DNA of 32,000 bases, taken from NCBI GenBank assembly GCA_041677685.1, contig JBAYPN010000003.1, positions 1 through 32,000 on the forward strand. Reading direction: 5' to 3'. This stretch comes from an archaeon (GTDB lineage: Archaea; Iainarchaeota; Iainarchaeia; Iainarchaeales; CSSED10-239). Position 1 is the stretch's first letter, and every line of letters begins with the position of its first letter. Under the pieces are notes generated by a model that was not told where the DNA came from, did not search any database, and saw nothing but the letters and a program-made list of their open reading frames with translations. The position numbers were made by a program, and so were the translations under genes. This document shows positions 1,848 to 23,941 of the stretch, one piece after another.

Positions 1848-1903
1848 TTTTAATTCCTCTGTTGTAACCTATAGATTATAGATAATCAAAAAATTTAAAA
1901 AAG

Positions 1904-6800: not shown

Positions 6801-9800
6801 TGTATGTTCTGTAGAGTCAGGCAACACATATTTTACCTCAACTCCACCAATACCTATGTTATTAACGTTATCAATAACTTTAAAGGTAAGGTTATTGTCA
6901 CCAACAAAGATATCCCCATTTGGGTTACTACTAAGAACAGAAACTGAATATTGTAGAGTATCATTATATGTGTAGATTGGGATCTTTAAAGGAGTTGTGA
7001 AAGGATCAAATATCTTAGTAACTATCTTTGGTTCGTTTATAGTCTGACAAAAGCCATCTACTGAGATATTCTTTTTAACAGAGAAATAATAACCAAAGTA
7101 AGCGTTTAGATCAGAGATCAATAAGTTCGGGGAATTGACAGGAACATAGCTAGGGTTTCTATGATATTTATCTATAAACAAATAATTATCATAAATTAAA
7201 TTGTTGTTTGTGTATATTGAACTAGAGTTATAGTCTCCAGTTCTGTTCTGATCATTTAGGTAGATGTAATCTGTATTATATTTATAGTTTGCACCAACAT
7301 CTAAATAATAAGCACCACCTGTTTTTTCAAGAGGCACATCACTTGAGTCAAGTAACTCCCAATCAAGAATATAGTCTTCAGTATCAAAAGGTATCTCAAA
7401 CTTACTTGTCTTTGAGTAGAAATACCCTTGAGGAACAATTGTCCAATTTTCAGGATTACTAAAGCTTGGCTTAAAAACATAATTGCTATCATTTCTAGAA
7501 AGGGCTCTGTAATTAATAACATAATTCTCAAATGGAGAAATCATGTTCTGATTAAAATTAATACCAACACTAAACTCCACAATGTTTATGTTACTATCAG
7601 AGAAGTTAATCTCTAACCACTTAGACTCATCTTCTGTCCAAGAATAAGTGTGGTCAAACTCATAATTGTTATTATAGAATAGACTGTTCCAATCTGTTAA
7701 TTCCCCTGCAAAAGAATATCCAAAGGCTTTGTCTATTTCTTCTGATTGTATGTTAAGATTATTTATATAAATATAATCATTATCAATTAAATGTTGTTTA
7801 CCTGCTCTAATGTGTGCAAAGGACAACTCTTTATTTTCTAGACAAGAAATATATTTAAACTTTAGTTGGTAATTTTGGTTTAAGGTATTATTAACAAAAT
7901 CAATGTTTGAGATTTCTGACTCTCCACTTTCATCAAACAACCCCACAACAACAAGATCAAGGTCTTGACAACTTGAAAGTGATTCAAGTTCAATTTCTTT
8001 AAAGATCTCGTGATTAGGTCTTAAGGTAATCAGTTCTGTTTGGTAAGTTGTAAAGCCTTGTTTTGAAACCACAGCATAGACTTTTGAAACATCATCTTCA
8101 AAGATATATTGTTTATTATAATCTTGACCAGTTACAGGGTTTACAATATAGTTTAAGACAGGTTCGTTTACATAATTGTAGAAATTAATATCATAGTCAA
8201 TTTCATTTACTTTTAAATTTAAGATCTTTGGTATAAATTCTAAATCTATCTCTAGCTCTAAGACATCATTTGCATCCAATTCTTTTATGTTTGATTGACC
8301 TTGTAGATTTTCATAATTATGGATTGAGAAAGCATAATATTCTCTGTTTGCTCTTTGAGAATAGAAGTTAACATCTCCTTGTGAGTTTGTAATTTCTGGG
8401 ATCTCATTGATTAATATAAATTCTTCTTCATTTAAAGATTCTCTAAACAAATATACTTTTGCACCATTTACATTGTTTCCAAAGGTGTCATTAACATTTA
8501 CAGAGACTATTCCGCTATTTAGTTCTGAAGCATATTCTAAATAGATAGTTATATTTTGGTCTAAGGAGTTAACATCATATGGCTCTGGAGAAATATACCC
8601 ATAATCTTCTGTGCCTGAGACTCTAACTTGATAATCATAAAGATCAATTAAATCGAAATTTGCAGAACTTTCTTCAACAACTATTTGTCCAGTTGATGAA
8701 TAATTTGAGTCTGTTCCTTTTAGTTTACTGTACAATAAAATATTTCCAATCACTTCTTCATTTGTGTCAACATCTAACAATTCAACATTTAAATAACCAA
8801 TGTTTCCAATAGTACAGCCATCGCTTATTTGTGTAAGGTAAGGTTGTAAGAATGAATTTGAACAATCTATCTCTCCATCAACACAAAACATTGAATAATT
8901 TGGATCATCACAATCAAAATCCTCTAGCTCTTGAGCAGTAAATAAATATAAGTTAACGTCCTTATTTTGTCCAACATTTACTGTGTAAGGTCCTTGCTTT
9001 GGAATAAATAAAAAACCTTCTTTATTTAGGTTTGTTAAATAACTTCCAGGTAAGATATCAAAGACATGTCTTCCATAGGTGTCAGTTGTGCCTGTGTGTG
9101 CTATAAAGTCTGGGTGAGTGGAAGTGTAAAGATTAGCTGTTGCATCAGTAATTGCAGACTGGTCTATTCTTTTTGCATTAACAGTTAATGTTCCTTTGTC
9201 AGTATTATTTCTTGTAAGTATTACTTTATTATTTTCTGGAACAACTTTGTTGGAGATATCATTATAACTATCTGAACTTACACTTACTCTTAATTCCCCA
9301 CAATTTGCAGGTTGCTTAACTACAACAATTCCACTAGTCACATTCTTGTAACTTGGTTCAGGGATTATTCCTAAATTTGAACAACTAAAAGTTACACTTA
9401 AAGAACTAATGATCAATAGGTCTTGATTGTCAAAGAATTTAATTTCTCTATCTTGTTCTTGGTTGTTGCTGTTTATTAAAGCATATTCTGTGTTTATGTC
9501 TAAGGACACAGAGTGACTTAGATTTTTTTTATTTAATTTAAAACCTATATTTTTTGAAATATAATTTTCTTTAGAAACAATTAAGACTGCTAAGCCCTTA
9601 CCTTTTACCTCTAAAAATTGTGTTTCTCCAAACACATCTGTTGTTTGTGAAGTTATTACTTCATCATTTAATTTTAATTCAACCAAAGCATCGTTTAGTT
9701 GGTTGTTGAAACTATCTGTTACTTCTACAGAGATGTTGTGTACCTTAGAGATGTTAAAAGATATTGTTCCTGACACAAGTAAGTAAATGATTGCTGCAAT

Positions 9801-10064
9801 TATTATTAAGAATAAAATAAAGCTTGGAAATAGTTTATCTATTTTGTCTGTAAGTTTGTTAAGAGGTACCACTCTACTTATAAAGTCAACAAGATCATAA
9901 TATTTATCTTCTAGATAAAAATAAACCCTTTTTGGAAGAGTTGCTCTTTTTGAGAAAGTTACTTTTGGCTTTTTAATTTTAGAAGAGTCTTTTAAATTTC
10001 TCTCTAAATCTTTTTTAGCTTCTTCTAATTTTTTTAGCTTATCATCATTTGTTATTTCTGTCAT
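3852..10064 (-). CDS. Giant (2070 aa) N-terminally membrane-anchored surface protein with beta-sandwich (CarboxypepD_reg/PEGA-like) domains and the shared C-terminal module
   Basis: Uninterrupted 6.2-kb ORF in AT-rich DNA. A roughly 78-aa charged cytoplasmic head is followed by TM FPSFILFLIIIAAIIYLLV. Domains such as ISVEVTDSFNNQLNDALVELKLN...GETQFLEV fit the CarboxypepD_reg pattern. Many N-x-S/T sequons and Cys residues. The C-terminal ~500 aa are paralogous to the 2465-aa and 1009-aa proteins. Confidence 0.95.
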   Translation of the reverse strand: MTEITNDDKLKKLEEAKKDLERNLKDSSKIKKPKVTFSKRATLPKRVYFYLEDKYYDLVDFISRVVPLNKLTDKIDKLFPSFILFLIIIAAIIYLLVSGTISFNISKVHNISVEVTDSFNNQLNDALVELKLNDEVITSQTTDVFGETQFLEVKGKGLAVLIVSKENYISKNIGFKLNKKNLSHSVSLDINTEYALINSNNQEQDREIKFFDNQDLLIISSLSVTFSCSNLGIIPEPSYKNVTSGIVVVKQPANCGELRVSVSSDSYNDISNKVVPENNKVILTRNNTDKGTLTVNAKRIDQSAITDATANLYTSTHPDFIAHTGTTDTYGRHVFDILPGSYLTNLNKEGFLFIPKQGPYTVNVGQNKDVNLYLFTAQELEDFDCDDPNYSMFCVDGEIDCSNSFLQPYLTQISDGCTIGNIGYLNVELLDVDTNEEVIGNILLYSKLKGTDSNYSSTGQIVVEESSANFDLIDLYDYQVRVSGTEDYGYISPEPYDVNSLDQNITIYLEYASELNSGIVSVNVNDTFGNNVNGAKVYLFRESLNEEEFILINEIPEITNSQGDVNFYSQRANREYYAFSIHNYENLQGQSNIKELDANDVLELEIDLEFIPKILNLKVNEIDYDINFYNYVNEPVLNYIVNPVTGQDYNKQYIFEDDVSKVYAVVSKQGFTTYQTELITLRPNHEIFKEIELESLSSCQDLDLVVVGLFDESGESEISNIDFVNNTLNQNYQLKFKYISCLENKELSFAHIRAGKQHLIDNDYIYINNLNIQSEEIDKAFGYSFAGELTDWNSLFYNNNYEFDHTYSWTEDESKWLEINFSDSNINIVEFSVGINFNQNMISPFENYVINYRALSRNDSNYVFKPSFSNPENWTIVPQGYFYSKTSKFEIPFDTEDYILDWELLDSSDVPLEKTGGAYYLDVGANYKYNTDYIYLNDQNRTGDYNSSSIYTNNNLIYDNYLFIDKYHRNPSYVPVNSPNLLISDLNAYFGYYFSVKKNISVDGFCQTINEPKIVTKIFDPFTTPLKIPIYTYNDTLQYSVSVLSSNPNGDIFVGDNNLTFKVIDNVNNIGIGGVEVKYVLPDSTEHTVGITNSSGIIDDFDLFVDLELLGANIKFNFLFDSSLGLPNNTISVNKKVMSGVYVGTSSLTYNINYINVNDNIQYNISENTYDISNKNSSLEDVKLQEVTLNLTGANNSKYFKILQTKEKISSQNSLPLLLDAEAKIIKAPVVVDGSQVNLVIQTPFTVSGKFENLIKVNSSKTQYIDLPNLTFNFVKFGDLNLNLVSESTYGLITETEDKLTTVELIKEKVDTINLDYNIFLPDISKGGSGNNITLNNIVASAVTPHLENIINLQTLNTQLQNDYSNLEITSIPKTLKIPIKAKAISQDPETFDKLRLEFNLGLGNKDITVTKEVLVRVLDKDKLFEIDPHDDYFINCTSDSDCNLEVIYKTTNKTQTYDLNFTKLTYENLPSNLLDIEVSYGALPFISVGEYKNLKFTLNSNFESLEELKKDVDSNLDIFFKFDFAGNKSSFYKKNIIVKSRYLPNVEVEWPEGIRGKLCLGVGANIQEDGSLFIFGDCQVKDEYSQCRSGESALPKVRYDWAVNTSNKINWKGYNLESSEVTCVSSSEEYDTTGKFYCDSAQLLITSLVRLKDNNSEDFYIYLVGDKVSKDLLNDFIDYAGDFGNVDFSDFKETFFNKVSVGNSDFKITKDSSLPGLYKVEVDGFLENKLDLNISFVQEIPVNQINMFYYLPIDGPLGMSLSADQTRFGYGTKNDYIDNLSSEEILLYYLNSNDTLKLLELEKEGYQENPINLNLRNYDSGFETSTVKGVLNSNGTLLNISKEETSSQDIVSLKLDYSPSYPVPIFARAGCFKENNLNYILKTPNNLVEVVPNNFLTWDFNSEINDSSFDSVSKLEDYKQSLSSGGYNNHSLDLKSKIGGYDISSALVSTTLYFPASQTIDNYKLFVRNIENSTNDENTFLYGLEDLKGIKDMALKSNISNIVFSINKLFDLIEDNKACIYSSKESTYIKWNEDNTKFTKEQIDSIKEDFLSYPSTCSSGSGPGNTTTQ

Positions 10065-13424: not shown

Positions 13425-16400
13425 TTAATTACAATCAAAGGCATCATCAGGAGCTTCTACATGTTTTTGAGCATCATAAATCTTTTCTGGATTCCACCAA
13501 AACTCAGAAACTGTACCATCTGCAGAGTTTGTTACACAAACTTCTCTAGATTTTATTTTTTCAAAAATATTATTAATTGATTTAATTTGAGATGCCTTGC
13601 CACTACTTCCAAAACTACTTGGGTCTAAAGAAACATCAATTCCATTTTGCTTTTGAACATTTATAGAATAATCTTTATTGTATGGTGTGTAAATTATTGA
13701 TCTTAAATAAACTTTGCCTTGGTAATTTACAATTGGCCATTCTAATTTATATCCGTTTTTAATTGGATCTCCTGCTAAGGTAATATGATCGAAGGTATTA
13801 TTAAATGAAGAATATATGTCTTCTCCTGAAAGATCACAACCTTGTCCAACACCAGTCCATCTTGTAAATGTTTCTTCTCCATAAACAGCAGTATTATTAG
13901 AGTTATCCATTATCTTATAGTAGACTTCAAAAGGAGTAATCTTTGAGTTTTTTACAGACATTAAAACTGGAGTTGCAACACTTGGACTAAATATTAAATT
14001 AACAATATCTTCTGTAGATGTTATTTTTAAAATATTTCCTCTTGTTCCTACTTCTGAATTTATTTTAAAAATATTATCTACTGCTTCTATGTTTAAATAT
14101 TTAAATGGATTTGAGCCTTTATCATAATAACTTCTTACTTGATCAACTTGTGAGGCATCTCCAATAATTATATCATCATTACCTGAATAAGCCAAACCAT
14201 ATCCTTGTCTATTATATCCTGTGTCTGCATAACCTACAAGTCCATTAAATGGTAGTCTATAGAAAGCACTACTTGTTTCTGGTCCTTTAACATATGAGAA
14301 AGTAACAAAAGAATTTAGGTCTACTTTGTTATTGTTAACCATCTTCCAACCATCATTACCAAATATAAAGTCTATATCTATATCATAAAGTCCAGGTGTA
14401 AGAATGGTTACTTCTTCTTGATTTCCTGAATATTTTAAACTATAATTTAGATTATTTATAAACAATTTAGATAAGTACCCATCATCTGTCTGACCATTAA
14501 ACATTCCTGGAGATGACATTAGAGCAAACTCTCCAACACCAGCACCACTATCAATAGATGCTTTTCCACCATAGGTTCTGTCGAAATCATTTTTGAAATT
14601 TATATTATAATTATCAGTTATTAGCTTTGCTTTAAATTTAAGTAAATTTCTTAAAGTTGAAATGTCTTCTTGACTCCAACCATTACCCCCATTAACAGTC
14701 ACATTTTCAGGATATTGGTTAGCATTAAACCACATGTCTATAAAGTCAATTCCATTATAAATTAAGGTCATTGCTGGAACTTTACAACCACTTGTTTCTG
14801 GAGCTTTATAATTTTCTAAAGTTATTTCTGTGGAGAAACTATTATACTCTGAATAGTTTCCTGTGTAGTTTAATGAAAGAGAAATGTTTTCATCTAATAT
14901 CTTTTGAGTATTGGAACCAAATCTAAAGATTATGTCTGAAAAGTTATCTTCTCCAGATGGTGTTATTATATCATAACTATTTGCAATTGATTGCTCATCA
15001 AACTCTCCTGTTGAGTGATTATAAATTTCTACTTTTGTTGCAGGGTAATTTTCAAAAGTAGCAGTAACTGTTCCTGTTCTACTATCATTTGTTCTATTCT
15101 CTACAGACATATGCACAATAAACTGATTATCCTCAGTTCCAAATTTAACATCTGAGATTCCAACTTTTCCAAGAGGTATTTCATTTGTTACTCCATCTTC
15201 TTCTGCAACATATTGGTAAGTTCCTTCTAATGCTTCATCAGCAACTTGTTTATTGCTCTTTGGGCATTGAACATTTCTTTGCTCAATAAATTTTTTTGCT
15301 TTATCAATTCTATTTAAAATTACTTGAGTTAGTTGTGTTGCATCACAATAATTATCTTCACAATCATAAATATTATCTAAATCCCACTTCCAATCTAAGT
15401 TAACTTCAGGAACCGCACCTGGTCCAGTAAATCCAAGTTTATCTGAGTCTGTCATACAAGAATATACATTCAGATCAACATTTGGTTTTTCTTCAGTTTT
15501 TGGTAAATGGAATTCCACTCTATATTTTCCAATTCTTTGTGAGTCTTTAAAAGCTAAGTCTTGTTGACTTAAAGAATCATTTAAGGTTGGGTAGAAGTCG
15601 TATGTTTTATATTGACTTAATCTTGAACTATTCTTTATAACGTCATAAGCTGAATTATCAATAACAAAAGTAATTGGTTTGATTCCTGCTTGTTCAGGCC
15701 AAACAGTTTCATCTGAATTACATATTGAATAAATATTAAACTCTGCATTTACTTTCTTTCTAGGAATTGAACCATCACAATCTATTTTGAAATTTGTATA
15801 ATCTTCATTTGATCCTGCTTCATCAACTCTTAAATTTGAACAAATACTAGTATTAATTATATCTAAAATATATTCTTGTTCTTCAACAACCGAATTTTGA
15901 TAATTACATTTTGGCACAACTACATTTAAAGTTTTATCTTCTGCTAACTTTCCTTTAATATTTACATATTTATTTAAATAAGTAGTATATCTTGCACCAG
16001 TAACATCAAAAATATTTAGATATTCTTCCTCTAATTCATAATTATTTAAATTAATAACTTTTAATTGTTCAAAATCACTAAAGGTATATTCATCTGAGAC
16101 ATCTAAAATTCTATTTGATTCCTGAATATCATAATCAGATATAAAAATTGGAGTAACTAACATTGCAATTGCTGCAGTACCGGCAAGTATCCAACCAAAT
16201 GGTGGCACTATACTACCTGTTACAATTATTGTTTTTAAACCAATTAATAATGCTACTGTAATAGTTGCTGCTGCTCCAGCCCCAATTGATGTTCCTAAAT
16301 AACTTCCAAATCCAGGTCCATTAGCGTTAACCAAATTCTCTTTTTCATTAAATAACATCTTTGCAAAGATAGAAGAATCACTATCAAAGCCATCACTCAT

Positions 16401-19400
16401 AAACTTAGAAAAACCATCTCCAGCTTTTTGAGTAGAATAATCCCAAGGTGTCTTTTTTAAATTATTATTATATAGTTTCTTTGTGGAAGTAACATAAGAA
16501 TTATTTATATCTTCATTTACTTCAAAGAAAGGGTCGTCCATCCAAAGTTGGTCCTTAACATTTACCTTTAATGGCTTAGTAACTGAAGCTATTGCTCTAT
16601 CATTATTATCAAGAGCCTCTACCAACACTTCTAAAGTGTAAGCCCCAGGAACATCAGGTTTTTTCACACCAACAATTTTCTCTGTCTCTCCACTTCCAAA
16701 AGTTATTTCATTTTGCTGAGTACCACTAACATTTTCAAACTTCAATTCTTGACAACCATAGTTTGTGGCTTTGTTAGGACATAAGGTTACCTTAAATCTT
16801 CCACTTTCAGAACAACTGTTTCTAATTATTAGTTCCTTACTTCCAACCTCATTTCCTAATACCCCAGAATCAATAACAAACATTCCACCAGGACTAATCT
16901 CTTTATCATCACTATAAAAATCAAAACATTCAGAAATTTCTGTAATCTTAATCTCAGCTTCTAAAAGTTCTTCACCAGCACCATTATTAACATAAACAAG
17001 ACCTTCATCAGTCTCTATCTGTGCATTTAGGTAAACTTTAGTTTTAATTTCTCCAAACTTGGTTCCAGCAGCATTATAACTTAAAACTGCAGAATAGTCT
17101 CTGTCAGCCTCAACATCTTCAACAACACTCTTATAAATCCCTTCTGTAAGCCTAATACTCTCTTGTCCAATCATCAAATCATAATAACCATATCTATCCC
17201 CTGAGGAAACAATCTTTGCTCTTATGTTTTTAAGGGTAGCTACTTGTTCTGGGTTTTCTTTTAGTCTACAATTGTTTTTAATAACAAAGTTTATCTGTTG
17301 ACTTCCCCCACCATTAATAACACTCTTCCAAGGGTTAAAAAAGCCCTCAGCTATCAAGCAATTGTCTGAGTAAACACCACTACCCACAGATATCTTTGTT
17401 TTAATTGGAATATCAAAAGCATACCTAGAACTTCCTTTCCTTAAATAACCAGTAATCACACCATCTAAGATCTCAGTTTCTACAAGATTTTTTGCATCTT
17501 GAGAAGGTACAATCTTAATGCTTAGCTCGTGAGAGGAGTTTGCAGGGATTACAAGTTCTCCTGAAATTTGAGTATTTAAGTAGTTTAAAGTTTTTCCAAG
17601 TGCTAATAATGAAGAATATTTAAAATAAATATTTTCTGTTATAAAGTCATCTAATACAAGATCATAATTACTTTTATTATTGATTGTTATCTTTTCAACA
17701 GTTCCATCAAAATCATTTTTATGAACATTTACAAGTAATGGTGAATCTGTTGTTAAAAGAGAACCATTTTTTGTAACTGACACAACTTCCTCAACAATTG
17801 GAATTTCTAAGTCTTTAGCAACATATGATGATTTATGTGCCCTAATTACAATTATTTCTCCTAGGTTAACAGCTGGCATAAGGATGTTTACTTTCCCTTC
17901 AGAATCTGTTTTTAGTTTGCCAACAGATATTGCAAACATGTAATTGTTCATCTTTTGATAAACATCAATTGTTGCTCCTTCAACAGGATTTCCTGAAGCA
18001 TCTTTTACCTTTACTAGCATATCAAAGTTTATGTTTGGTAAAATATTTTTTGGCTCATAATCAATTGTCATGTCATAGATCTTGTTTGAAAGTAAGTTAA
18101 GACCAAGATCATAAATAACCTCTTGTTCAGAAACAATAGTGTGTAATAATTTTGTTTGTCCAACATATAATGGGTTAATCTCCAAATTAAAATTTGTTTC
18201 TGAAAATCCAGGGATGGTTGGTGCTGTTAGTTCCTCTCCATCAAATGGTATCTTAAAATTTTCTTCTCCATTATTTGAGTAACCTTGATCATTAAACACT
18301 CCTTCAATCTCATAACTTCTAATATTTACTTTTTCTGTTTTATAGTTTGAAAGATCTGTGTTTTTAATTATCATTCTTGCATTATCATAACTTATGGTTT
18401 TTGCATTCTTTAAAGAATATTCTAATTTATAGTCTGAATTTATTAACATTGGAATTTCTAGGTTGCTTGCAATATCATATCTAAGATCTTCTTTAACATC
18501 TAAAAACTGACCACTAAAACAAAATACCTCTGTACAAAGGTTTTCTGCCTCTATGTAATATTGATATTGTTGATAAGTGGAGATGTTAACTAAACTTCCA
18601 GAATTAGAGATGTATGATTTAAAGTAAACTGGGATCATGTCTCCAATTACAGCATTTCTTACTCTAACAGGAACTGACAACTCATACACTCCAGGGGTAA
18701 TATCACTCCACAAAAGATCAACTAACTTTGCTTCATTTCCAGAAGCTACAGATGTATCAAATGGATTGTTTGCATAATAAACAGGTACACCTAGGCTATT
18801 TACAATTGCCTTAATATAAACAATATCATCACTAACATTATTTTTAGAACCAACTCTGAAAACAAAACCCATTCTGTCTTTTGAGATTGGGGTCACAATT
18901 CTAAATTTAAAATAAAAGACTTCATTATTTTTTAAAGATTCAACCTTGCTTCCAGAGGTATTATAGACCCCCAGATAATCAGCTAATGGGACTTCTCCTG
19001 AATATTCTGTGTACAGAACAACTTGTTTACTAACACTTCCATCTTTCTTTAGCTCTATGATGTCTGTAAAGTATGGCATATAGCCTTCTTTGTTAACTTT
19101 TAAATAAATCTTCTTATCAGCCTTTAAAAGCTTAGAAAAAATCCCTGAGCTGTTTGAAAAATCTTTACCTATAAAGTTTCCATCAGAAGAAAAAATACTA
19201 ACTTCACAATCACTAACATTATCCCCATAGGAATTCTTGATCGCCAATTGAACAGTTGCTCTTCCAATCTCTACAGAAACCTCTAAGTTACTATCAACTG
19301 GAGGGGTGTGATTAAAGTCAGAGGAGTCTCCTTCCAAATAGTTCTTTTTAACTTTTAAAAAATAATTTCCAATTGGGATATCTTCAAACAAAACATCTCC

Positions 19401-20822
19401 ATTAACATCTGTTGTTTCAAAATTAAATCTAACATCAATATACCCAGTCACAGCATCATAGATTAAGACTTTTGCATTATTTACAACCAAACCATCTTCA
19501 TCATAAACATTTGCTTTTATTTTTGAAACATTACTTATAGTTTTCTTCTCTAAGTTAAAAGTGTAGGTGTTAAGTGTTTTAGTTACAACCTTTACTTGTG
19601 GAATGTAGCCATCAACAGAGGCTTTTAAAGAATATTCTTTATTAGCATCTATGTCAAAGGTAAAACCTTGAGTGTGTGCTCTAATATCAATTGTTTGATT
19701 ACCATCTTCTAACAAAGTTATTGTTGGGTTAATTAATGGGTCTGTAATTTCTAGACCACTCTCTAAGTCTAAAATTGTGGCTGTAATTGTTCTTAAAGTT
19801 ATCTCTTGATTGGTGTCAGGATCAATTATTGGTCCTCCACCTTCTACTTGTGTGTCTACCATATTAATTTCTAGATTAATAAGATCATCTTTAATTATTG
19901 TAAAATCAGAATTGTTTGATAAATATCTTCCGTTTGGATCATTTGCCACTGCCCTATATTCTCCAACAGGTAGGTCATTAAACTTAACACTTGCCCAATT
20001 TGTTTGTTGACTTCTAATTGGATTAACAAGATCATCTTTTTCAAAAAGATTGACAGTGATGTCATCTAAAAAGCTAATCCCACTTTTAATTGTTAACTTT
20101 ACATCTCCTAGATTTTCAGAAATATTTCTTTTAGAGACATTAACAACAGATTGATTTTCTGGAATTAAAGTTCCTTCAACAAAATAATTTAGACCTTCAA
20201 CTGTAGCATATAGGTTACCACAATCACTAGGAACATCAAAAGAATAGTTACCATTCTCAATGGTTACAGAGCTTGGAGTGATTAGTTCTCCATTCTCACA
20301 CCTAACCATAACCTTTAGTTCATCATTAATTACTTGTGTTGTTAAAGAGTCTATAAAGGATAATGTCTTTTTACTATAGTCAGGTAGATTAAAGATACTT
20401 AAGATTACTTTAAATTCTGGTTGGGTAAGATCAATCTTCTTTTCAAACAACTCATAGCCTTGCTTTTGGACAATCAACATGTAGTCTGAAGAGGAATCTA
20501 AAGTGACTACCTTTGAACCATTTGCTTCTGTAAAGTATGTTTTTTCAGAATTTGTGTATATGTTTTTTATAGAAAATTCTAAATTTGATAGAATAGAGCC
20601 GTTGTTGTCTGCAATCTTTATTGTAATATCATTAAAGCTTTGTTTGTTTGAAGATAGAAAGTCATGTGGAATTACAAAATATAAGATTACTAAAATTATT
20701 AAAATTAAGATAACAAAAGAAAAAAGTGGAAAAATCTTATCTAAGGGCTGTGTTATTTTTTTAATTGGAATTCTGTTATTTACCTTATCTAAAAAAGATT
20801 GCCATTTTTCTGAAAAACTCAT
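13425..20822 (-). CDS. Giant (2465 aa) membrane protein: N-terminal anchor, at least five CarboxypepD_reg/PEGA-like beta-sandwiches, Ig/CARDB-like middle module, internal TM hairpin, shared C-terminal module
   Basis: Uninterrupted 7.4-kb ORF. ATG with AGGTGA (plus 20832-20837) 9 nt upstream. N-terminal TM FPLFSFVILILIILVILYFVIP. Example domain: KANVYDEDGLVVNNAKVLIYD...TDVNGDVLFEDIPIGNYFLKVKK. Hydrophobic hairpin at aa 1505-1561. Confidence 0.95.
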   Translation of the reverse strand: MSFSEKWQSFLDKVNNRIPIKKITQPLDKIFPLFSFVILILIILVILYFVIPHDFLSSNKQSFNDITIKIADNNGSILSNLEFSIKNIYTNSEKTYFTEANGSKVVTLDSSSDYMLIVQKQGYELFEKKIDLTQPEFKVILSIFNLPDYSKKTLSFIDSLTTQVINDELKVMVRCENGELITPSSVTIENGNYSFDVPSDCGNLYATVEGLNYFVEGTLIPENQSVVNVSKRNISENLGDVKLTIKSGISFLDDITVNLFEKDDLVNPIRSQQTNWASVKFNDLPVGEYRAVANDPNGRYLSNNSDFTIIKDDLINLEINMVDTQVEGGGPIIDPDTNQEITLRTITATILDLESGLEITDPLINPTITLLEDGNQTIDIRAHTQGFTFDIDANKEYSLKASVDGYIPQVKVVTKTLNTYTFNLEKKTISNVSKIKANVYDEDGLVVNNAKVLIYDAVTGYIDVRFNFETTDVNGDVLFEDIPIGNYFLKVKKNYLEGDSSDFNHTPPVDSNLEVSVEIGRATVQLAIKNSYGDNVSDCEVSIFSSDGNFIGKDFSNSSGIFSKLLKADKKIYLKVNKEGYMPYFTDIIELKKDGSVSKQVVLYTEYSGEVPLADYLGVYNTSGSKVESLKNNEVFYFKFRIVTPISKDRMGFVFRVGSKNNVSDDIVYIKAIVNSLGVPVYYANNPFDTSVASGNEAKLVDLLWSDITPGVYELSVPVRVRNAVIGDMIPVYFKSYISNSGSLVNISTYQQYQYYIEAENLCTEVFCFSGQFLDVKEDLRYDIASNLEIPMLINSDYKLEYSLKNAKTISYDNARMIIKNTDLSNYKTEKVNIRSYEIEGVFNDQGYSNNGEENFKIPFDGEELTAPTIPGFSETNFNLEINPLYVGQTKLLHTIVSEQEVIYDLGLNLLSNKIYDMTIDYEPKNILPNINFDMLVKVKDASGNPVEGATIDVYQKMNNYMFAISVGKLKTDSEGKVNILMPAVNLGEIIVIRAHKSSYVAKDLEIPIVEEVVSVTKNGSLLTTDSPLLVNVHKNDFDGTVEKITINNKSNYDLVLDDFITENIYFKYSSLLALGKTLNYLNTQISGELVIPANSSHELSIKIVPSQDAKNLVETEILDGVITGYLRKGSSRYAFDIPIKTKISVGSGVYSDNCLIAEGFFNPWKSVINGGGSQQINFVIKNNCRLKENPEQVATLKNIRAKIVSSGDRYGYYDLMIGQESIRLTEGIYKSVVEDVEADRDYSAVLSYNAAGTKFGEIKTKVYLNAQIETDEGLVYVNNGAGEELLEAEIKITEISECFDFYSDDKEISPGGMFVIDSGVLGNEVGSKELIIRNSCSESGRFKVTLCPNKATNYGCQELKFENVSGTQQNEITFGSGETEKIVGVKKPDVPGAYTLEVLVEALDNNDRAIASVTKPLKVNVKDQLWMDDPFFEVNEDINNSYVTSTKKLYNNNLKKTPWDYSTQKAGDGFSKFMSDGFDSDSSIFAKMLFNEKENLVNANGPGFGSYLGTSIGAGAAATITVALLIGLKTIIVTGSIVPPFGWILAGTAAIAMLVTPIFISDYDIQESNRILDVSDEYTFSDFEQLKVINLNNYELEEEYLNIFDVTGARYTTYLNKYVNIKGKLAEDKTLNVVVPKCNYQNSVVEEQEYILDIINTSICSNLRVDEAGSNEDYTNFKIDCDGSIPRKKVNAEFNIYSICNSDETVWPEQAGIKPITFVIDNSAYDVIKNSSRLSQYKTYDFYPTLNDSLSQQDLAFKDSQRIGKYRVEFHLPKTEEKPNVDLNVYSCMTDSDKLGFTGPGAVPEVNLDWKWDLDNIYDCEDNYCDATQLTQVILNRIDKAKKFIEQRNVQCPKSNKQVADEALEGTYQYVAEEDGVTNEIPLGKVGISDVKFGTEDNQFIVHMSVENRTNDSRTGTVTATFENYPATKVEIYNHSTGEFDEQSIANSYDIITPSGEDNFSDIIFRFGSNTQKILDENISLSLNYTGNYSEYNSFSTEITLENYKAPETSGCKVPAMTLIYNGIDFIDMWFNANQYPENVTVNGGNGWSQEDISTLRNLLKFKAKLITDNYNINFKNDFDRTYGGKASIDSGAGVGEFALMSSPGMFNGQTDDGYLSKLFINNLNYSLKYSGNQEEVTILTPGLYDIDIDFIFGNDGWKMVNNNKVDLNSFVTFSYVKGPETSSAFYRLPFNGLVGYADTGYNRQGYGLAYSGNDDIIIGDASQVDQVRSYYDKGSNPFKYLNIEAVDNIFKINSEVGTRGNILKITSTEDIVNLIFSPSVATPVLMSVKNSKITPFEVYYKIMDNSNNTAVYGEETFTRWTGVGQGCDLSGEDIYSSFNNTFDHITLAGDPIKNGYKLEWPIVNYQGKVYLRSIIYTPYNKDYSINVQKQNGIDVSLDPSSFGSSGKASQIKSINNIFEKIKSREVCVTNSADGTVSEFWWNPEKIYDAQKHVEAPDDAFDCN
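16140..16310 (-). other. Internal Gly/Ala-rich double hydrophobic segment (predicted TM hairpin) within the 2465-aa protein
   Basis: aa 1505-1561: FGSYLGTSIGAGAAATITVALLIGLKTIIVTGSIVPPFGWILAGTAAIAMLVTPIFI. These are two ~20-residue apolar stretches separated by KT..PP. Confidence 0.7.
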
Positions 20823-20911: not shown

Positions 20912-23900
20912 CTAATCTTTGATACATCCACCTTTACTTTCAGCCCAAACATTCTGTTCCTCATACTCCATAGAGTTATTAAAGAACTTTTCAATAATTG
21001 CTTTTGGATTATAATATACTTCTAAGTTTGTTGCTGAATAGTTGATACATGCTTTTTTCTCAGCCACAAGATCATATATTTGTTTTAAAGATTTAATATC
21101 ATAACTTTGTCCAAACACATTCTTAAGTTCAATATCTTTACCGCTAATTTCTTGGTTTCCATTATATGTATAAAGCATCATGTCATCACTATATGAGTCT
21201 GCATACAATTGACTAATTCCTGTTCCTGTTGTAAAGTTACTTGGAGTGTAGAATATTGTTCTTAAAAATACATTTCCTTTTCTTATGATAATGTCTTCTG
21301 GCCATTCAACACCATAACTATATGTTTGGGATGGTGTGTGTGGTGCCAATTGGGAGTTTGTTGCTAAAAGATCAGGCTTATTTAAAAACATCTGCTGTAT
21401 TGGTACTCCTGTAAAGTCATTACATTCTCCAACCCCAGTCCACTTTGTAAGCTCTTGACCAGGATGTGCTGCAACTCCTCCTAAATTTTCTGGGTTTCCA
21501 ATACTTAGTTTATAGAAAGCATATGCATCATTTAGTTGATTGCCTACCTTTAAAACAACAGGGCTTGCTCTTGATGGCACAAATCTTAAATTTGGATTTC
21601 TATGTGCTGAATCTGTGTTGATTGACAATATCATTCCTCTTGTTTGGTTGTTGTTCATGATTGCAAAGTCTTCTGCTCTTACCCCATATTCTTTAACACT
21701 CAGAGTATTTACTGTGTTTGAGGAAGTAAATGGTTCTGATCTCATATTAATTTCATGATCTAAATCTATAACATCTCCAATATAATCTAAACCATAACCT
21801 TGTCTAGCATTTGGTGTAGTGATTCCTACAACTCCATCAAATGGCATATAATAAACTGGAGAATCCATTTCAGGACCAATTTCTTTTGTTAACTTAATTG
21901 TTATGTCTCCTACTAAGTTATGAGCATCATCAAAAAGTCTCCATTGATCATCATATTCAATATTAACTTGAACTTCATATCTTCCAGGACCTGATAGGGT
22001 TTTACCTTCATCAAATCCAATTTGGAATTTAAATTTATCAGGATGTATGAAATATTTATATAGATCATCTCCATTTCCTGTTGGATTATAATAGAAGTTT
22101 GAAACTCCCATAAATTGTGTTCTATAATATTCATCAAAGTCCATTCTAAAGTCATCTGAGTAACCATCATACATTAACAATGATCTAAAATTAACATAAA
22201 CATCATCTTTAAACTTAGGGTTTATTTTCTTTGAAAATAATTTAATATTTTGGCTTGTGTGATCTAGTGCACATTCAACAGCTGAGGTGTTAAACATATT
22301 CTTTAACTCATCATCTCCTTTTAGATTAGGAATTGTTTCTACAAAGTTAATTAACTTAGCAGTTACTTCATAATCAGTAGAGTCAGGCAAATAACCAACA
22401 ATAAATTCCTCTGTGCCTTCAAACACTCCATGTATTCTAATATCATCTGCTATTATATTTAAAGTTACAGTATTACTAATTGGGTCTGCTTTACTAGTTG
22501 AATTAAATTTAATTTCTAGTTGTGCAATTGTTTGATTTGGAGCTGCCCAAACATCAAATCCACCTTCTACTCTATAATCAACTAAAATTTTATTTATTCC
22601 ATCATAGCTTGAATCTAAAGAAGACACTCCAATGTTGTTAACATCTGTTATTATTGGTCTGTTAACTCCTGGTTGAGGACAAATAAATTGAGATTTGTTT
22701 TGTTCTACAAATTTATTAATTTCATTTATTTTTCTTAAAACCTCAATTGAGAATTGAGTAGCATCACAATAAATTCCTGATTTTGTTTTATCATTTGGAT
22801 TAACATCACACCATTCTACTCTATCAAGTTGATTACCATTAATTGCTGTAGAGGTGTTTGACTTGTCTGCAAAAGTCCAATCAAAGGCAACCTTTGGTAG
22901 TGTTTCTTGTCCAGTTGTTCCAATTGGAAGTCCTGATTCATCAAAACAATCTAATTGATCATAATTAAGAGTTGCATTTTCATCATTTGTCCAAGAATTA
23001 AATTGTAAATGGAAAATTTGGTAAATGTCTTTTACTGTTCTTGCATTTCTTATTTCTTCGTTTAATTTTTTATTATCAGAAACTTTATCTAAGCTTAATA
23101 GGTTTTTACCTGTTGAGAAAGGAGATAGTAAGAAGGTTAACCATTCTCCATCTAAAAGATCAGAGGTTTTAAGAGACACATTAATATTACCTTTGTATTC
23201 TGCTTTTTTATATTTAGCAACTAGGTATCTATATTCATAAGAATTTTGAATACTTTTGTTTGGGTCTTCAAACAACATTCCTCTTTTTTGTCCTTGTACA
23301 GAATTGTTATCAAGATTATATAATTGTTGAACTGTTGTTTCTTTTTCTAATCTAAAAGCTGGAGAAGTGTTTTCTTCATAAAGTGTGGATAGAGGTTGAG
23401 TTTTTATATATTCTATATCAAAAACATTTTTGTCTGTTAACACCATTGTGTCATATGGACCATCTGAACTATTAATACTTCTAGAATTATTTGTTGTTTC
23501 TTCTCTTTGCACACCTTGTATTCTGCCTTCATAAAGTTGGTCTCCATAATTTGCATAATCTGCAGAATTAAATTTATCTTTATCAATATAGTCTCTTTCA
23601 TCTTCAGAGATGTTAACTTTATCTTTGGTTACTGTAAAATCAATATCTTTGTTTAGATTTTTATAAGTATTAAAACCTGAAAAGGCTCCACCTAAAAGTC
23701 CATGAACAATTGGATTTAAACCAATTAATTTATTGATACCAGTTCCAAATAGATTGAAAAGAGAATCTAATGCTGAAGAACCTTGATTAATTGCACCTGC
23801 TGTATTTGTTAGATTCCCTAAAATATTAGTATTTTGTGTAGTTTCTTCATCACCATCTGCATAGACACCAAAACTAAACACTCCTACAACTATAACAAAC

Positions 23901-23941
23901 ACAAACAACAAACTTATAAGTTTCATATTTTCTCTTTTCAT
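20912..23941 (-). CDS. Secreted 1009-aa protein; paralog of the C-terminal half of the 2465-aa protein
   Basis: ATG with AGGTG (plus 23949-23953) 7 nt upstream. Signal peptide ...FSFGVYA|DG. Gly-rich amphipathic segment at aa ~41-95. aa ~330-1009 align motif by motif with the C-termini of the two giants. Confidence 0.95.
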   Translation of the reverse strand: MKRENMKLISLLFVFVIVVGVFSFGVYADGDEETTQNTNILGNLTNTAGAINQGSSALDSLFNLFGTGINKLIGLNPIVHGLLGGAFSGFNTYKNLNKDIDFTVTKDKVNISEDERDYIDKDKFNSADYANYGDQLYEGRIQGVQREETTNNSRSINSSDGPYDTMVLTDKNVFDIEYIKTQPLSTLYEENTSPAFRLEKETTVQQLYNLDNNSVQGQKRGMLFEDPNKSIQNSYEYRYLVAKYKKAEYKGNINVSLKTSDLLDGEWLTFLLSPFSTGKNLLSLDKVSDNKKLNEEIRNARTVKDIYQIFHLQFNSWTNDENATLNYDQLDCFDESGLPIGTTGQETLPKVAFDWTFADKSNTSTAINGNQLDRVEWCDVNPNDKTKSGIYCDATQFSIEVLRKINEINKFVEQNKSQFICPQPGVNRPIITDVNNIGVSSLDSSYDGINKILVDYRVEGGFDVWAAPNQTIAQLEIKFNSTSKADPISNTVTLNIIADDIRIHGVFEGTEEFIVGYLPDSTDYEVTAKLINFVETIPNLKGDDELKNMFNTSAVECALDHTSQNIKLFSKKINPKFKDDVYVNFRSLLMYDGYSDDFRMDFDEYYRTQFMGVSNFYYNPTGNGDDLYKYFIHPDKFKFQIGFDEGKTLSGPGRYEVQVNIEYDDQWRLFDDAHNLVGDITIKLTKEIGPEMDSPVYYMPFDGVVGITTPNARQGYGLDYIGDVIDLDHEINMRSEPFTSSNTVNTLSVKEYGVRAEDFAIMNNNQTRGMILSINTDSAHRNPNLRFVPSRASPVVLKVGNQLNDAYAFYKLSIGNPENLGGVAAHPGQELTKWTGVGECNDFTGVPIQQMFLNKPDLLATNSQLAPHTPSQTYSYGVEWPEDIIIRKGNVFLRTIFYTPSNFTTGTGISQLYADSYSDDMMLYTYNGNQEISGKDIELKNVFGQSYDIKSLKQIYDLVAEKKACINYSATNLEVYYNPKAIIEKFFNNSMEYEEQNVWAESKGGCIKD

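What the first reader, a model, noticed from the sequence alone, without database searches (positions are those of the whole stretch)
13428..15455. Uncharacterised conserved C-terminal module shared by three proteins in the island
The C-terminal ~500-680 aa of the 2465-aa protein (this interval), the 1009-aa protein (20915-22954) and the 2070-aa protein (3855-5357) are collinear. They share the following motifs. (1) LPKVRYDW / LPKVAFDW / VPEVNLDW. (2) YCDATQ (twice) / YCDSAQ. (3) FYRLPFNGLVG / VYYMPFDGVVG / FYYLPIDGPLG. (4) RQGYGLAYSG / RQGYGLDYIG. (5) FTRWTGVGQGCD / LTKWTGVGECND. (6) LEWP...KVYLRSIIYTP / VEWP...NVFLRTIFYTP. (7) A terminal K-ACI--S / VCVTNS motif followed by a last Cys. The 2070-aa copy is the most diverged. 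I do not recognise this motif set as any named domain.
Basis: seen in the sequence. Interest (0 to 1): 0.7.

Follow-up and report, generated by a model that had tools for sequence, protein, structure and literature searches.

The report
Unnamed head domain of archaeal giants
Three neighbouring genes of a tiny-celled DPANN archaeon (Iainarchaeota-like) end in the same large, cysteine-locked extracellular domain, which matches no named family or known fold I could search; it is the hallmark C-terminal "head" of giant membrane-anchored envelope proteins found across that phylum, and its function is still unknown.

Summary
The C-terminal ~500-690 aa of the 2465-, 1009- and 2070-aa proteins are homologous and collinear. 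A profile built only from homologues outside the window scores E=5e-196, 2e-114 and 6e-14; the 2070-aa copy gets 44 bits, against at most 6.6 bits for its shuffled versions.

Pfam-A, NCBIfam, PHROGs, PDB sequences, and Foldseek against PDB and BFVD give nothing. The one exception is that a variable insert is a generic FN3/Ig-like sandwich.

The module is not rare. It has 841 clusters (50% identity) in 1.84 billion proteins. In the 181 members examined it always sits at the extreme C-terminus, mostly of ~2300-2700-aa proteins with an N-terminal membrane anchor and Ig-like repeats. Nearly all named records are Iainarchaeota (Diapherotrites).

Tandem arrays of two to four module-bearing genes are the rule. 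The paralogues are ancient, keep a fixed order, and are commonly followed by two small membrane-protein genes that are also present in this window.

My best reading (confidence about 0.45) is a disulfide-stabilised, non-enzymatic interaction or assembly head of a conserved envelope complex. A role as an enzyme or as S-layer lattice is not excluded.

It is a new domain family within a known kind, the giant surface proteins of reduced-genome archaea.

The parts
13425..20822 (-). Gene for the 2465-aa giant protein (p2465). It comprises an N-terminal TM anchor, a ~1400-aa block of beta-sandwich repeats, a variable linker with a hydrophobic hairpin, and the C-terminal module.
   Evidence: ORF. Pfam finds CarboxypepD_reg, SpaA and Big_1 only in aa 435-990. 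BLAST coverage over 73 loci shows conserved blocks at aa 1-1400 and 1750-2460, with a variable stretch at 1400-1750. The identical protein occurs on contigs from at least 3 samples.
13428..15500 (-). C-terminal module of p2465 (aa 1775-2465).
   Evidence: E=4.7e-196 against a profile built without window sequences. All motifs located.
15267..15458 (-). p2465 module, Cys-rich head plus long helix (aa 1789-1852; VPEVNLDW, YCDATQ).
   Evidence: Conserved columns C332/W355/C378/Y391-C392-D393-x-T-Q396 in p1009 numbering, 93-96% over 181 members. The AF2 model of p1009 places helix 394-418 directly after YCDATQ.
14784..15266 (-). p2465 module, variable FN3/Ig-like insert (aa 1853-2013), bracketed by the conserved Cys of QCP and of SGCKVP.
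   Evidence: The YCDATQ-to-RQGYG spacing varies from 130 to 380 aa among members. The bracket cysteines are absent in the insert-less members (P0007, P0008, p2070). In p1009 the insert is a 7-strand sandwich at 425-551. Foldseek hits are only FN3/Ig domains, with probability 0.97-1.0 and TMt 0.5-0.6.
13428..14783 (-). p2465 module, beta-rich core (aa 2014-2465): F.A.LI.D.Y..F..DF, PGLY, FYRLPFNGLVG, RQGYG, TRG, SPS.ATPV, W.G.G.C.D, YLRSIIYTP, CVTNS, WNP, terminal Cys.
   Evidence: The equivalent region of p1009 has pLDDT 80-95.
20912..23941 (-). Gene for the 1009-aa protein (p1009): signal peptide or anchor (aa 8-26), a ~170-aa disordered region with a Gly-rich amphipathic segment (aa 74-93), a small beta/alpha domain (aa 195-314) and the module.
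   Evidence: It is the stand-alone form of the C-terminal half of a giant. The upstream N-block gene is p1031.
20915..22987 (-). Module of p1009 (aa 319-1009): head 22682-22954, Ig-like insert 22271-22681, core 20915-22270.
   Evidence: E=1.7e-114 against the non-window profile. AF2 gives pLDDT 80-95 over aa 330-1009. It retains 96 of 100 conserved columns.
3852..10064 (-). Gene for the 2070-aa giant protein (p2070): TM anchor aa 79-97, an N-block homologous to that of p2465, a unique middle part, and a diverged module.
3855..5369 (-). Diverged, insert-less module of p2070 (aa 1566-2070): head 5088-5330, core 3855-5087.
   Evidence: 44 bits against at most 6.6 for shuffles, collinear with the profile. 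AF2 gives pTM 0.68 and pLDDT 62, with secondary-structure elements in the same order as in p1009. It retains 48 of 100 conserved columns and has lost the equivalents of R768, C840 and YTP.
16155..16298 (-). Hydrophobic helical hairpin in the p2465 linker (aa 1509-1527 and 1538-1556), ~270 aa upstream of the module.
   Evidence: Kyte-Doolittle scan. 48 of 88 giant homologues have 1-2 such segments 60-450 aa upstream of YCDATQ. Membrane insertion is inferred, not shown.
20670..20726 (-). N-terminal TM anchor of p2465 (aa 33-51), preceded by a Lys-rich 32-aa tail.
   Evidence: 84 of 88 giant homologues have an N-terminal TM segment. The N-in topology is inferred from the positive-inside rule.
28897..31992 (-). 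3' part of the gene for the N-block protein (p1031; complete length 1623 aa on contig L074). It is homologous to p2465 aa 600-1274 and is the split-off N-terminal half that goes with p1009.
   Evidence: BLASTP E=1e-27. Full length. Homologues in 66 of 73 loci.
3294..3662 (-). p122, a small polytopic membrane protein and conserved downstream partner of the giant array.
   Evidence: A homologue lies on the same strand within 36-767 nt of the last module gene in 34 of 57 evaluable loci. No Pfam match.
2937..3287 (-). p116, a second small polytopic membrane protein and conserved partner after p122.
   Evidence: It follows the p122 homologue in 25 loci. No Pfam match.

Best explanation
The module is a real domain family that is unnamed in every library I could search. 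It is the extracellular, disulfide-locked C-terminal 'head' of giant envelope proteins of Iainarchaeota-type DPANN archaea.

Architecture of a complete subunit:
- an N-in transmembrane anchor;
- a ~1400-aa stalk of Ig/prealbumin-like beta-sandwich domains;
- a variable linker, often carrying a hydrophobic helical hairpin;
- the head, made of a Cys-rich cap with the invariant YCDATQ motif leading into a long helix, an optional FN3/Ig-like insert clamped by its own cysteine pair, and a ~450-aa beta-rich core.

The gene is sometimes split in the linker into an N-block gene and a ~1000-aa head gene. In this window those are p1031 and p1009.

Genomes keep two to four ancient paralogues in a fixed tandem order, usually followed by two small polytopic membrane-protein genes. 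In this window the set is p1031+p1009, p2465 and the degenerate p2070, then p122 and p116.

I infer that these proteins are co-expressed and form one envelope complex. In that complex the heads act as the interaction surface: they bind each other (paralogue-paralogue assembly) and/or a glycan or protein ligand on the organism's own envelope or on a partner cell. I do not think they act as an enzyme.

Shown here: homology, architecture, distribution, paralogy and synteny, and the absence of any known family or fold match.

Inferred: extracellular location, disulfides, co-expression, and the binding/assembly role.
For: Homology and family size. There are 841 clusters at 50% identity in 1.84 billion proteins, 538 of them with E<=1e-30. 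The module sits at the extreme C-terminus in the 181 members examined.

Taxonomy. The genome scan found 183 confirmed stretches. Nearly all named records are Candidatus Iainarchaeum / Diapherotrites, including the complete genomes CP010424.1 (AR10) and CP064981.1.

Evidence for an extracellular location.
- N-terminal TM or signal segments occur on all window proteins of the cluster and on 84 of 88 giants.
- Six cysteines are conserved at 88-98%, counting the terminal Cys present in 168 of 181 members.
- Two further cysteine pairs appear and disappear together with the insert.
- The only Pfam hits are Ig-like domains typical of surface proteins.

Structure. AF2 models the module confidently, with pLDDT 80-95.

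Evidence for a conserved multi-subunit system.
- 49 of 73 loci carry at least 2 tandem module genes.
- 94 of 97 modules are closer to a gene in another genome than to their own neighbour.
- There are two orthogroups (48 and 49 members) in fixed order in 33 loci, often with a third copy at ~18-20% identity.
- Homologues of p122 and p116 lie directly downstream in 34 and 25 of 57 loci.

Evidence for a structural or binding role rather than an arms-race adhesin or an enzyme.
- Conservation is even along the orthologues, at 25-45% mean pairwise identity per 100-column block apart from a low-conservation linker in one orthogroup (0.19-0.29).
- Conserved columns are dominated by Gly, Pro, Cys and aromatic residues plus Asp/Arg/Asn. 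No His, Glu or Ser column reaches near-invariance (at least 90%).
- The third paralogue has lost several of the invariant polar residues yet is retained.
- A minimal module is fused to an M64-like metalloprotease in another archaeon. That is how a targeting or binding domain behaves.
Against: There is no experimental or expression data. Function is inferred from architecture and context only.

- The strictly conserved polar residues (D393, Q396, D592, D597, D601, R713, R768, D842, D857, N978 in p1009 numbering) could form an active site or a metal site.
- I had no model coordinates, so disulfide pairing and clustering of the conserved residues were not checked.
- Hetero-oligomerisation was not tested, because no multimer prediction was available.
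- The hydrophobic hairpin is strong in only 48 of 88 giants, so the topology of the head relative to the membrane is uncertain.
- Fold searches used whole multi-domain models, and one model had low confidence (pLDDT 62). A remote domain-level fold match may therefore have been missed.
Confidence: 0.45

Rival explanations
1. The giants are the S-layer or outer canopy of these archaea. Under this reading the module is the lattice-forming domain, and the paralogues are co-assembling S-layer subunits (SlaA/SlaB-like logic, with the coiled-coil p1329 as a stalk).
For: - The proteins are large, secreted or anchored, and rich in Ig-like domains, like many archaeal S-layer proteins.
- The family is phylum-wide and evenly conserved.
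- The cluster takes about 28 kb of this window, in a lineage whose complete genomes are ~1-1.2 Mb.
- A 1329-aa coiled-coil-like secreted protein lies inside the cluster.
Against: - A preprint lists a different S-layer candidate for Iainarchaeota (A0A2G9N319, 1039 aa) in a survey that assigns DPANN S-layer proteins to the orthologous MSTP-like beta-sandwich class.
- The module and the giants have no Pfam S-layer hit.
- p1329 and p279 are lineage-specific and not part of the conserved array.
- An N-terminal anchor plus an internal hairpin is unusual for canopy proteins.
Confidence: 0.2
2. The module is an extracellular enzyme domain of a new fold, for example a glycan- or envelope-remodelling hydrolase or lyase. 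It would be displayed on a long stalk and would use the invariant Asp/Arg/Asn/Gln residues.
For: - About ten polar residues are 87-100% conserved across 181 representatives that are at most 50% identical to one another.
- Conserved Trp and Tyr residues are abundant, as in carbohydrate-active sites.
- In one archaeon the module is fused to a metalloprotease-like region.
Against: - No His, Glu or Ser column reaches near-invariance (at least 90%), and the cysteines fall into an even-numbered, co-varying set consistent with disulfides, which leaves no obvious free thiol.
- No match to any enzyme family or fold.
- The p2070 copy has lost R768 and other invariant positions yet is maintained.
- Three or four paralogous copies in fixed order are easier to explain as subunits than as isoenzymes.
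Confidence: 0.15
3. The module is a host-attachment or membrane-insertion device. The giants would be symbiont adhesins like the SPEARE proteins of Nanohaloarchaeota, the head would recognise a host surface, and the hydrophobic hairpin would insert into the host membrane.
For: - Large surface proteins in reduced-genome DPANN are generally proposed to mediate host interaction.
- A recurrent hydrophobic hairpin lies upstream of the head.
- The variable Ig-like insert could carry specificity.
Against: - Conservation is even and there is no hypervariability.
- The hairpin is not universal: 40 of 88 giants lack a strong one.
- No similarity to fusogens or to any PDB or BFVD entry.
- The module is absent from viral contigs.
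- Host dependence of Iainarchaeota is itself unproven (my own knowledge).
Confidence: 0.15
4. The shared motifs are chance or compositional similarity between Asn/Ile/Lys-rich proteins of an AT-rich genome.
For: The genome has ~29% GC and strongly biased amino-acid composition. The p2070 similarity is weak by BLAST.
Against: Profile E-values range from 5e-196 to 6e-14, using a profile that contains no window sequence. The shuffled controls reach at most 6.6 bits against 44 bits for the real sequence. Hundreds of homologues with the same motif order come from genomes of different composition.
Confidence: 0.01

Closest known systems
Inverse-autotransporter adhesins (intimin/invasin)
   Same: The overall logic is the same: an N-terminal membrane anchor, a rod of Ig-like (Big_1-type) domains, and a C-terminal disulfide-stabilised head that makes the contact. 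Weak Big_1 and Invasin_D3 Pfam hits occur in the stalk.
   Different: These proteins are archaeal, with a single TM helix instead of a beta-barrel anchor. The head is 500-690 aa with no C-type-lectin or any other known fold match. They occur as 2-4 ancient paralogues with two small membrane partners.
Giant surface proteins of reduced-genome DPANN archaea (e.g. SPEARE proteins of Nanohaloarchaeota; tandem large membrane proteins of Ca. Sukunaarchaeum)
   Same: Very large, membrane-associated, lineage-specific proteins that take up a sizeable share of a ~1 Mb genome. They are often adjacent and on the same strand, and are proposed to mediate cell-cell interaction.
   Different: No sequence relationship was detected. 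SPEAREs are described as carrying protease, adhesion and endonuclease domains. Here Pfam detects only Ig-like repeats besides the new head. This family is phylum-wide, with conserved paralogue order.
Archaeal S-layer systems (Sulfolobales SlaA/SlaB; MSTP-like S-layer proteins of DPANN)
   Same: Secreted, Ig-like-rich, probably glycosylated envelope proteins encoded by adjacent genes. One partner is anchored and the other is distal.
   Different: No homology to S-layer families. A separate S-layer candidate has been proposed for Iainarchaeota. The anchor is N-terminal.
Mycoplasma P1/P40-P90 (P140/P110) adhesion complex
   Same: A reduced-genome organism with an operon of large membrane-anchored proteins that form a hetero-oligomeric surface complex, the heads binding ligand. 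This rests on my own knowledge and on the abstract of PMC7156367 listed.
   Different: Bacterial and unrelated in sequence and fold. This is an analogy of organisation only.
Thioester proteins (alpha-2-macroglobulin/C3, CGEQ motif)
   Same: Weak sub-threshold MG4 and bMG3 Pfam hits in the stalk. The invariant Cys and Gln lie close together in YCDATQ.
   Different: The spacing is C-x3-Q, not C-x2-Q. There are no A2M, TED or receptor-binding domain hits. The cysteine count is even and consistent with disulfides.

Membership tests
   No Pfam-A hit in the module of any of 43 members at E<=0.01. No NCBIfam hit. The only PHROGs hit has E=0.044.
Any solved structure (PDB) or viral predicted structure (BFVD) | Sequence-profile or fold similarity over the head or the core | tested here: not met
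   The PDB profile search with A2 finds only the HEV ORF2 P-domain at E=0.019 over 57 aa. That hit disappears with the 43-sequence profile A3. Foldseek of the p1009 model (module pLDDT 80-95) against PDB and BFVD gives no hit with a meaningful TM-score apart from Ig/FN3 sandwiches. Foldseek of the insert-less p2070 model gives a best E of 0.1. Caveat: whole multi-domain models were used, and AFDB was not available.
FN3/Ig-like beta-sandwich (insert only) | A ~100-130-aa seven-strand two-sheet sandwich | tested here: met
   Seven strands at aa 425-551 of p1009. Foldseek probability is 0.97-1.0 with TMt 0.5-0.6 to FN3 domains and monobodies. This is a structural class only, with no family-level sequence match.
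Alpha-2-macroglobulin / thioester-containing proteins | CGEQ thioester motif within a TED domain, plus MG-domain array and A2M domains above threshold | tested here: not met
   The motif is YCDATQ. MG4 (21.4 bits against a cut-off of 24.7) and bMG3 (14.2 against 34.9) are sub-threshold and lie in the stalk. There are no TED or A2M hits.
Archaeal S-layer protein families (MSTP/DUF1608-type, SlaA/SlaB) | [quoted passage not shown] | tested here: inconclusive
   Homology was tested and not met. Lattice formation cannot be tested here. A different Iainarchaeota S-layer candidate is listed in 10.1101/2024.05.28.596244.
Class II fusogens / fusexins | Three-domain beta-rich ectodomain fold with a fusion loop, detectable by fold comparison with HAP2, Fsx1 or viral E proteins | tested here: not met
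   No such entry appears among the 50 best Foldseek PDB matches listed for either model (963 and 624 matches at E<=10), or in the BFVD matches.
Iainarchaeota giant-protein C-terminal module (the family defined here) | Collinear motifs: C..G.TG..P.V...W, YCDATQ plus helix, F...L..D....DF..DF, PG.Y, Y..P..G..G, R.GYG, RG, P..ATP, W.G...C.D, Y.P, C(V/I), WNP and a terminal Cys, all at the extreme C-terminus of a secreted or anchored protein | tested here: met
   p1009 and p2465 carry all motifs. p2070 carries most of them but has lost R768, C840 and YTP.

The most novel reading that the evidence does not exclude
The two to four ancient paralogous giants and the two small polytopic membrane proteins may form a previously unrecognised cell-surface machine specific to Iainarchaeota. 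The new-fold heads would hetero-oligomerise, as C1q or collagen NC1 heads do, into a distal tip that docks the cell to a partner or to a substrate. The conserved linker hairpins and p122/p116 would form its membrane base.
Probability: 0.25. Interest if true: 0.75.

Novelty: new variant of a known kind. Interest (0 to 1): 0.55.

Why it matters
Iainarchaeota (Diapherotrites) have no cultured member, and it is unresolved whether they are free-living or host-attached.

This work defines a phylum-wide signature system:
- a domain of ~500-690 aa with no named family and no detectable fold relative;
- always at the end of ~2400-aa anchored proteins;
- present in fixed-order ancient paralogues, with two dedicated small membrane proteins;
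- together occupying a few per cent of a ~1 Mb genome.

That gives three concrete handles on the envelope and interaction biology of this lineage:
- an HMM that can seed a new Pfam/InterPro entry;
- a marker for assigning mis-binned contigs;
- defined targets for multimer prediction, metaproteomics, antibody or cryo-ET labelling, and expression of a compact disulfide-bonded domain.

It is not a new principle of biology. Giant surface proteins in reduced-genome archaea are a known theme.

Tried and rejected
1. Direct BLASTP between p2465 and p2070 C-termini found no HSP. Membership of p2070 had to be shown by profile and shuffles.

2. An HMM dominated by p1009-like sequences, with Z set to 1.8e9, missed p2070. 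I re-ran with balanced profiles.

3. The HEV ORF2 P-domain hit (E=0.019) is rejected as chance, because it vanished with the broader profile.

4. Foldseek on the full p1009 model (PDB, BFVD) and on the insert-less p2070 model (PDB) returned only generic Ig/FN3 or Fab-like matches. The top-ranked long alignments (GH66 3wno, complement C5, integrin) have TM-scores of 0.07-0.13 and are meaningless.

5. The thioester idea for YCDATQ is rejected. The spacing is wrong, there is no TED or A2M domain, and the cysteine number is even.

6. Viral origin or a phage receptor-binding protein: no relative in IMG/VR and no PHROGs hit.

7. Mobile 'island': the array is syntenic across dozens of genomes. The 20% GC dip belongs to one coiled-coil gene.

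8. Four literature searches and five papers consulted gave no description of this family.

9. Pfam at relaxed thresholds for p122 and p116 found nothing.

10. p796, p221, p279 and p1329 are not conserved partners. Their homologues occur only in the same or the nearest lineage.

11. Model coordinates are not exposed by the tools, so disulfide geometry and clustering of the conserved residues could not be examined.

Full report
**1. What is in the window**

The window has ~29% GC, and every large ORF is on the minus strand. In the direction of transcription it reads as follows.

- p1031 (28897-31992). This is the 3' part of a gene cut by the window end; the complete protein is 1623 aa on contig L074.
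- p279, then p1329. The latter is coiled-coil-like and has 20% GC.
- p1009, then p2465.
- p221, then p796, which is Gly/Asn-rich.
- p2070.
- Two small polytopic membrane proteins, p122 and p116.
- tRNA-Arg, an HU-type gene, tRNA-His and histidyl-tRNA synthetase.

All cluster proteins whose N-terminus lies inside the window begin with a hydrophobic signal or anchor segment.

**2. Check of the observation**

All seven quoted motif groups are present in the stated proteins and in the same order.

- BLASTP of p1009 against p2465 gives E=2e-29 (30% identity over 431 aa) plus a second collinear HSP. BLASTP of p1009 against p2070 is weak. BLASTP of p2465 against p2070 finds nothing.
- I therefore built a profile from homologues found elsewhere, excluding every window sequence. 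It scores p2465 at 642 bits (E=4.7e-196), p1009 at 373 bits (E=1.7e-114) and p2070 at 40-44 bits (E=6e-14).
- The p2070 match is collinear over profile positions 226-850. The best of 444 scored shuffles of the p2070 C-terminus reaches 6.6 bits.
- No other window protein matches.

It keeps 48 of 100 conserved columns, against 96 for p1009 and 73 for p2465.

**3. Anatomy of the module**

The spacing between YCDATQ and RQGYG varies from about 130 aa (p2070, P0007, P0008) to about 380 aa (p2465). The spacing from RQGYG to the C(V/I) motif is constant at 223-251 aa.

An AlphaFold2 model of full-length p1009, built on a 43-sequence alignment, is confident over the module (pLDDT 80-95). It is disordered over aa 1-190. 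The model shows three parts.

- A Cys-rich cap, in which YCDATQ leads into a 25-residue helix (394-418).
- A seven-strand sandwich (425-551).
- A beta-rich core (about 560-1009).

The sandwich is the variable insert. Foldseek matches it only to FN3/Ig domains. It is absent from p2070, whose model (pTM 0.68, pLDDT 62) has the remaining secondary-structure elements in the same order.

Across 181 members the following positions, in p1009 numbering, are at least 80% conserved:

- C332, G341, G344, P349, W355, C378;
- Y391-C392-D393-x-T-Q396, C421-P422;
- F585, L589, D592, D597-F598, D601-F602;
- G653, Y655, Y697, P700, G703, G706;
- R713, Y716-G717, N763, R768-G769;
- P789, T793-P794, W834, G836, C840, D842, D857;
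- Y876, G889, Y898-T-P900, C965, N978.

A final Cys lies 32-57 residues (two outliers at 70 and 580) after C965 in 168 of 181 members. The pair C421/C557 is absent in the insert-less members P0007, P0008 and p2070. A further pair, C495/C513, tends to co-occur inside the insert. The cysteines therefore form an even-numbered, co-varying set, as expected for disulfides in an extracellular domain. This is an inference, because I could not inspect model coordinates.

**4. Is it a named domain?**

No, in every library available here.

- Pfam-A finds nothing in the module of p2465, p1009 or p2070, or in any of 43 family members. The only hit is a Peptidase_M64 match in the non-module part of P0007.
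- NCBIfam finds nothing, and PHROGs finds nothing significant.
- A PDB sequence-profile search gave one borderline hit, the HEV ORF2 P-domain at E=0.019 over 57 aa. It disappeared with the broader profile.
- Foldseek of the p1009 model against PDB and BFVD, and of the insert-less p2070 model against PDB, returned only generic sandwiches or alignments with TM-scores near 0.1.

InterPro, arCOG and AFDB were not available.

**5. Distribution**

A word-seeded search with the p2465 module found 8 relatives. A profile search found 33 more, some named 'hypothetical protein [archaeon]' or '[Candidatus Diapherotrites archaeon]'.

An exhaustive HMMER search of 1.84 billion cluster representatives found 841 clusters at E<=1e-3, of which 538 have E<=1e-30. 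In the 181 members examined the module is always at the extreme C-terminus. Host proteins fall into a main mode of 2250-2750 aa and a second mode of 750-1100 aa.

A scan of one genome per GTDB species found 183 confirmed stretches.

- Nearly all named records are Candidatus Iainarchaeum / Iainarchaeota.
- They include Ca. Iainarchaeum andersonii and the complete genomes CP010424.1 (AR10) and CP064981.1.
- A few are labelled Micrarchaeota.
- Two are probably mis-binned ('Chloroflexi', 'Thaumarchaeota').

No relative exists in IMG/VR viral contigs. The closest genome to the window is JBBISB010000001.1 (L007). It has the same order of a 964-aa module protein (51% identical core) followed by a 2426-aa giant (40.5%).

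**6. The whole protein and the locus**

BLAST coverage over 73 loci shows that p2465 has three parts:

- a conserved N-block (aa 1-1400);
- a variable linker (1400-1750);
- the module (1750-2460).

The N-block gives only Ig-like or prealbumin-like Pfam hits (CarboxypepD_reg, SpaA, Big_1).

- 84 of 88 giants have an N-terminal TM segment.
- 48 of 88 have one or two strongly hydrophobic segments 60-450 aa upstream of YCDATQ. In p2465 this is a hairpin at aa 1509-1556.

p1031 is homologous to p2465 aa 600-1274 (E=1e-27). Together, p1031 and p1009 are the two halves of a giant split in the linker. In this lineage p279 and p1329 have been inserted between the halves. Independent splits occur elsewhere, for example the 1152-aa plus 966-aa pair in L001.

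Tandem copies are the rule.

- 49 of 73 loci carry 2-4 module-bearing ORFs within ±10 kb.
- The paralogues are ancient: 94 of 97 modules are closer to a gene in another genome than to their neighbour.
- Clustering gives two main orthogroups of 48 and 49 members.
- Those two orthogroups occur in the fixed order 3→4 in 33 loci. In 14 of those loci they are preceded by a third copy that is only 17-22% identical. p2070 is of this divergent type.

Within orthogroups, conservation is fairly even along the whole protein, at 0.25-0.46 mean pairwise identity per 100 columns apart from the linker. The head and core are among the best conserved parts. The insert and, in orthogroup 3, the linker (0.19-0.29) are the least conserved.

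Homologues of p122 lie on the same strand directly after the last giant in 34 of 57 evaluable loci, and p116 homologues follow in 25. Detection used a single distant query, so these counts are lower bounds. p796, p221, p279 and p1329 are not conserved.

**7. How it most likely works**

Shown:

- a real, phylum-wide domain family with no named relative;
- a fixed position at the C-terminus of anchored proteins rich in Ig-like repeats;
- ancient, fixed-order paralogues;
- two conserved small membrane partners.

Inferred:

- N-in topology of the anchor, from the Lys-rich 32-aa tail and the positive-inside rule;
- an extracellular, disulfide-bonded head;
- co-expression as an operon.

My best explanation (confidence 0.45) is that the giants are subunits of one conserved envelope complex. 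In it the module is the interaction surface. It would either associate with the heads of the other paralogues or bind a glycan or protein ligand. The Ig-like insert would be an accessory, more variable element.

Four lines of evidence point to a non-enzymatic role.

- The conserved set is dominated by Gly, Pro, Cys and aromatic residues, and no His, Glu or Ser column reaches near-invariance (at least 90%).
- A degenerate third paralogue is retained although it has lost R768, C840 and YTP.
- The paralogues keep a fixed stoichiometry-like arrangement.
- A minimal module is fused to an M64-like protease in an unrelated archaeal context, which is what a targeting domain would do.

Rivals:

- S-layer lattice domain (0.2). 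This is weakened because a preprint lists a different S-layer candidate for Iainarchaeota, in a survey that places DPANN S-layer proteins in the MSTP-like class.
- New-fold enzyme (0.15). The ten or so invariant Asp/Arg/Asn/Gln residues keep this open.
- Host-attachment or membrane-insertion device (0.15). This fits the literature theme for DPANN giants, but the even conservation and the non-universal hairpin argue against it.
- Chance similarity. This is refuted.

**8. Comparison with what is known**

In organisation the system works most like two groups:

- inverse-autotransporter adhesins (anchor, Ig-like rod, disulfide-bonded head);
- the operon-encoded hetero-oligomeric surface complexes of other reduced-genome organisms.

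It belongs to the known theme of giant surface proteins in DPANN (SPEARE, Sukunaarchaeum). It is not a member of any of these families. Every membership feature I could test was either not met or applied only to the generic FN3/Ig class of the insert.

**9. Verdict**

- It is a new domain family, probably a new fold, that defines a conserved multi-gene envelope system of Iainarchaeota.
- I rate it a new variant of a known kind, with interest 0.55.
- It would be valuable for Pfam/InterPro and for DPANN cell biology, and the mechanism is testable.
- It is not a surprise in principle.

Noticed in passing
window 2937-3287 (-) and 3294-3662 (-): Two small polytopic membrane proteins (116 and 122 aa) with no Pfam match. 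They are conserved directly downstream of the last giant gene: 34 (p122) and 25 (p116) of 57 evaluable loci. They are probably dedicated partners of the giant proteins.
   Followed up: partly
window 16155-16298 (-), p2465 aa 1509-1556: A strongly hydrophobic Gly/Ala-rich helical hairpin lies in the linker ~270 aa upstream of the module. A similar element occurs in 48 of 88 giant homologues. In the split versions of the gene, the break falls in this linker region. I could not tell whether it is a resident TM hairpin or an insertion or assembly element.
   Followed up: partly
window 24027-28016 (-) and 28019-28858 (-): A 1329-aa coiled-coil-like secreted protein at only ~20% GC, and a 279-aa Cys-rich secreted protein. 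They sit between the N-block gene and the module gene of the split giant. Both are lineage-specific and found only on the same contig elsewhere. Their N-termini resemble each other (BLASTP E=5e-5).
   Followed up: partly
window 10068-12458 (-): A 796-aa secreted protein with long Gly/Asn-rich GGNGGNxG-type repeats and no Pfam hit. Apart from copies of this same contig, its only homologue among the fetched loci is in the nearest relative, L007.
   Followed up: no
window 12971-13037 (within p221, 12614-13279 -): A 24-nt tandem repeat of 2.8 copies, 97% matching, encodes PQGEPSGD units. The same gene is 213 aa instead of 221 aa on contig L074, which fits one repeat unit fewer and suggests copy-number variation between populations.
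   Followed up: partly
window 1903-1977 (-) and 522-1847 (-): tRNA-His (GTG) lies 55 nt upstream of the histidyl-tRNA synthetase gene on the same strand. A tRNA-Arg (GCG) lies at 2851-2924.
   Followed up: no
window 2475-2735 (-): A bacterial-type HU/IHF DNA-binding protein gene (Pfam Bac_DNA_binding, E=1.5e-30) on what is otherwise an Iainarchaeota-like archaeal contig.
   Followed up: no
P0007 / locus L077 883-4095: An archaeal contig with TrmB and DUF4013 neighbours encodes a 1070-aa lipoprotein-like protein. It has a minimal, insert-less module at the N-terminus and a C-terminal HEFGH / Peptidase_M64-like region. This is the only different domain context seen for the module.
   Followed up: partly
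loci L025 (JAFCCG010000009.1) and L040 (JAGVNS010000003.1): Records titled 'Chloroflexi bacterium' and 'Thaumarchaeota archaeon' carry the same Iainarchaeota-type giant genes. These contigs are probably mis-binned, and the module HMM could flag such cases.
   Followed up: no
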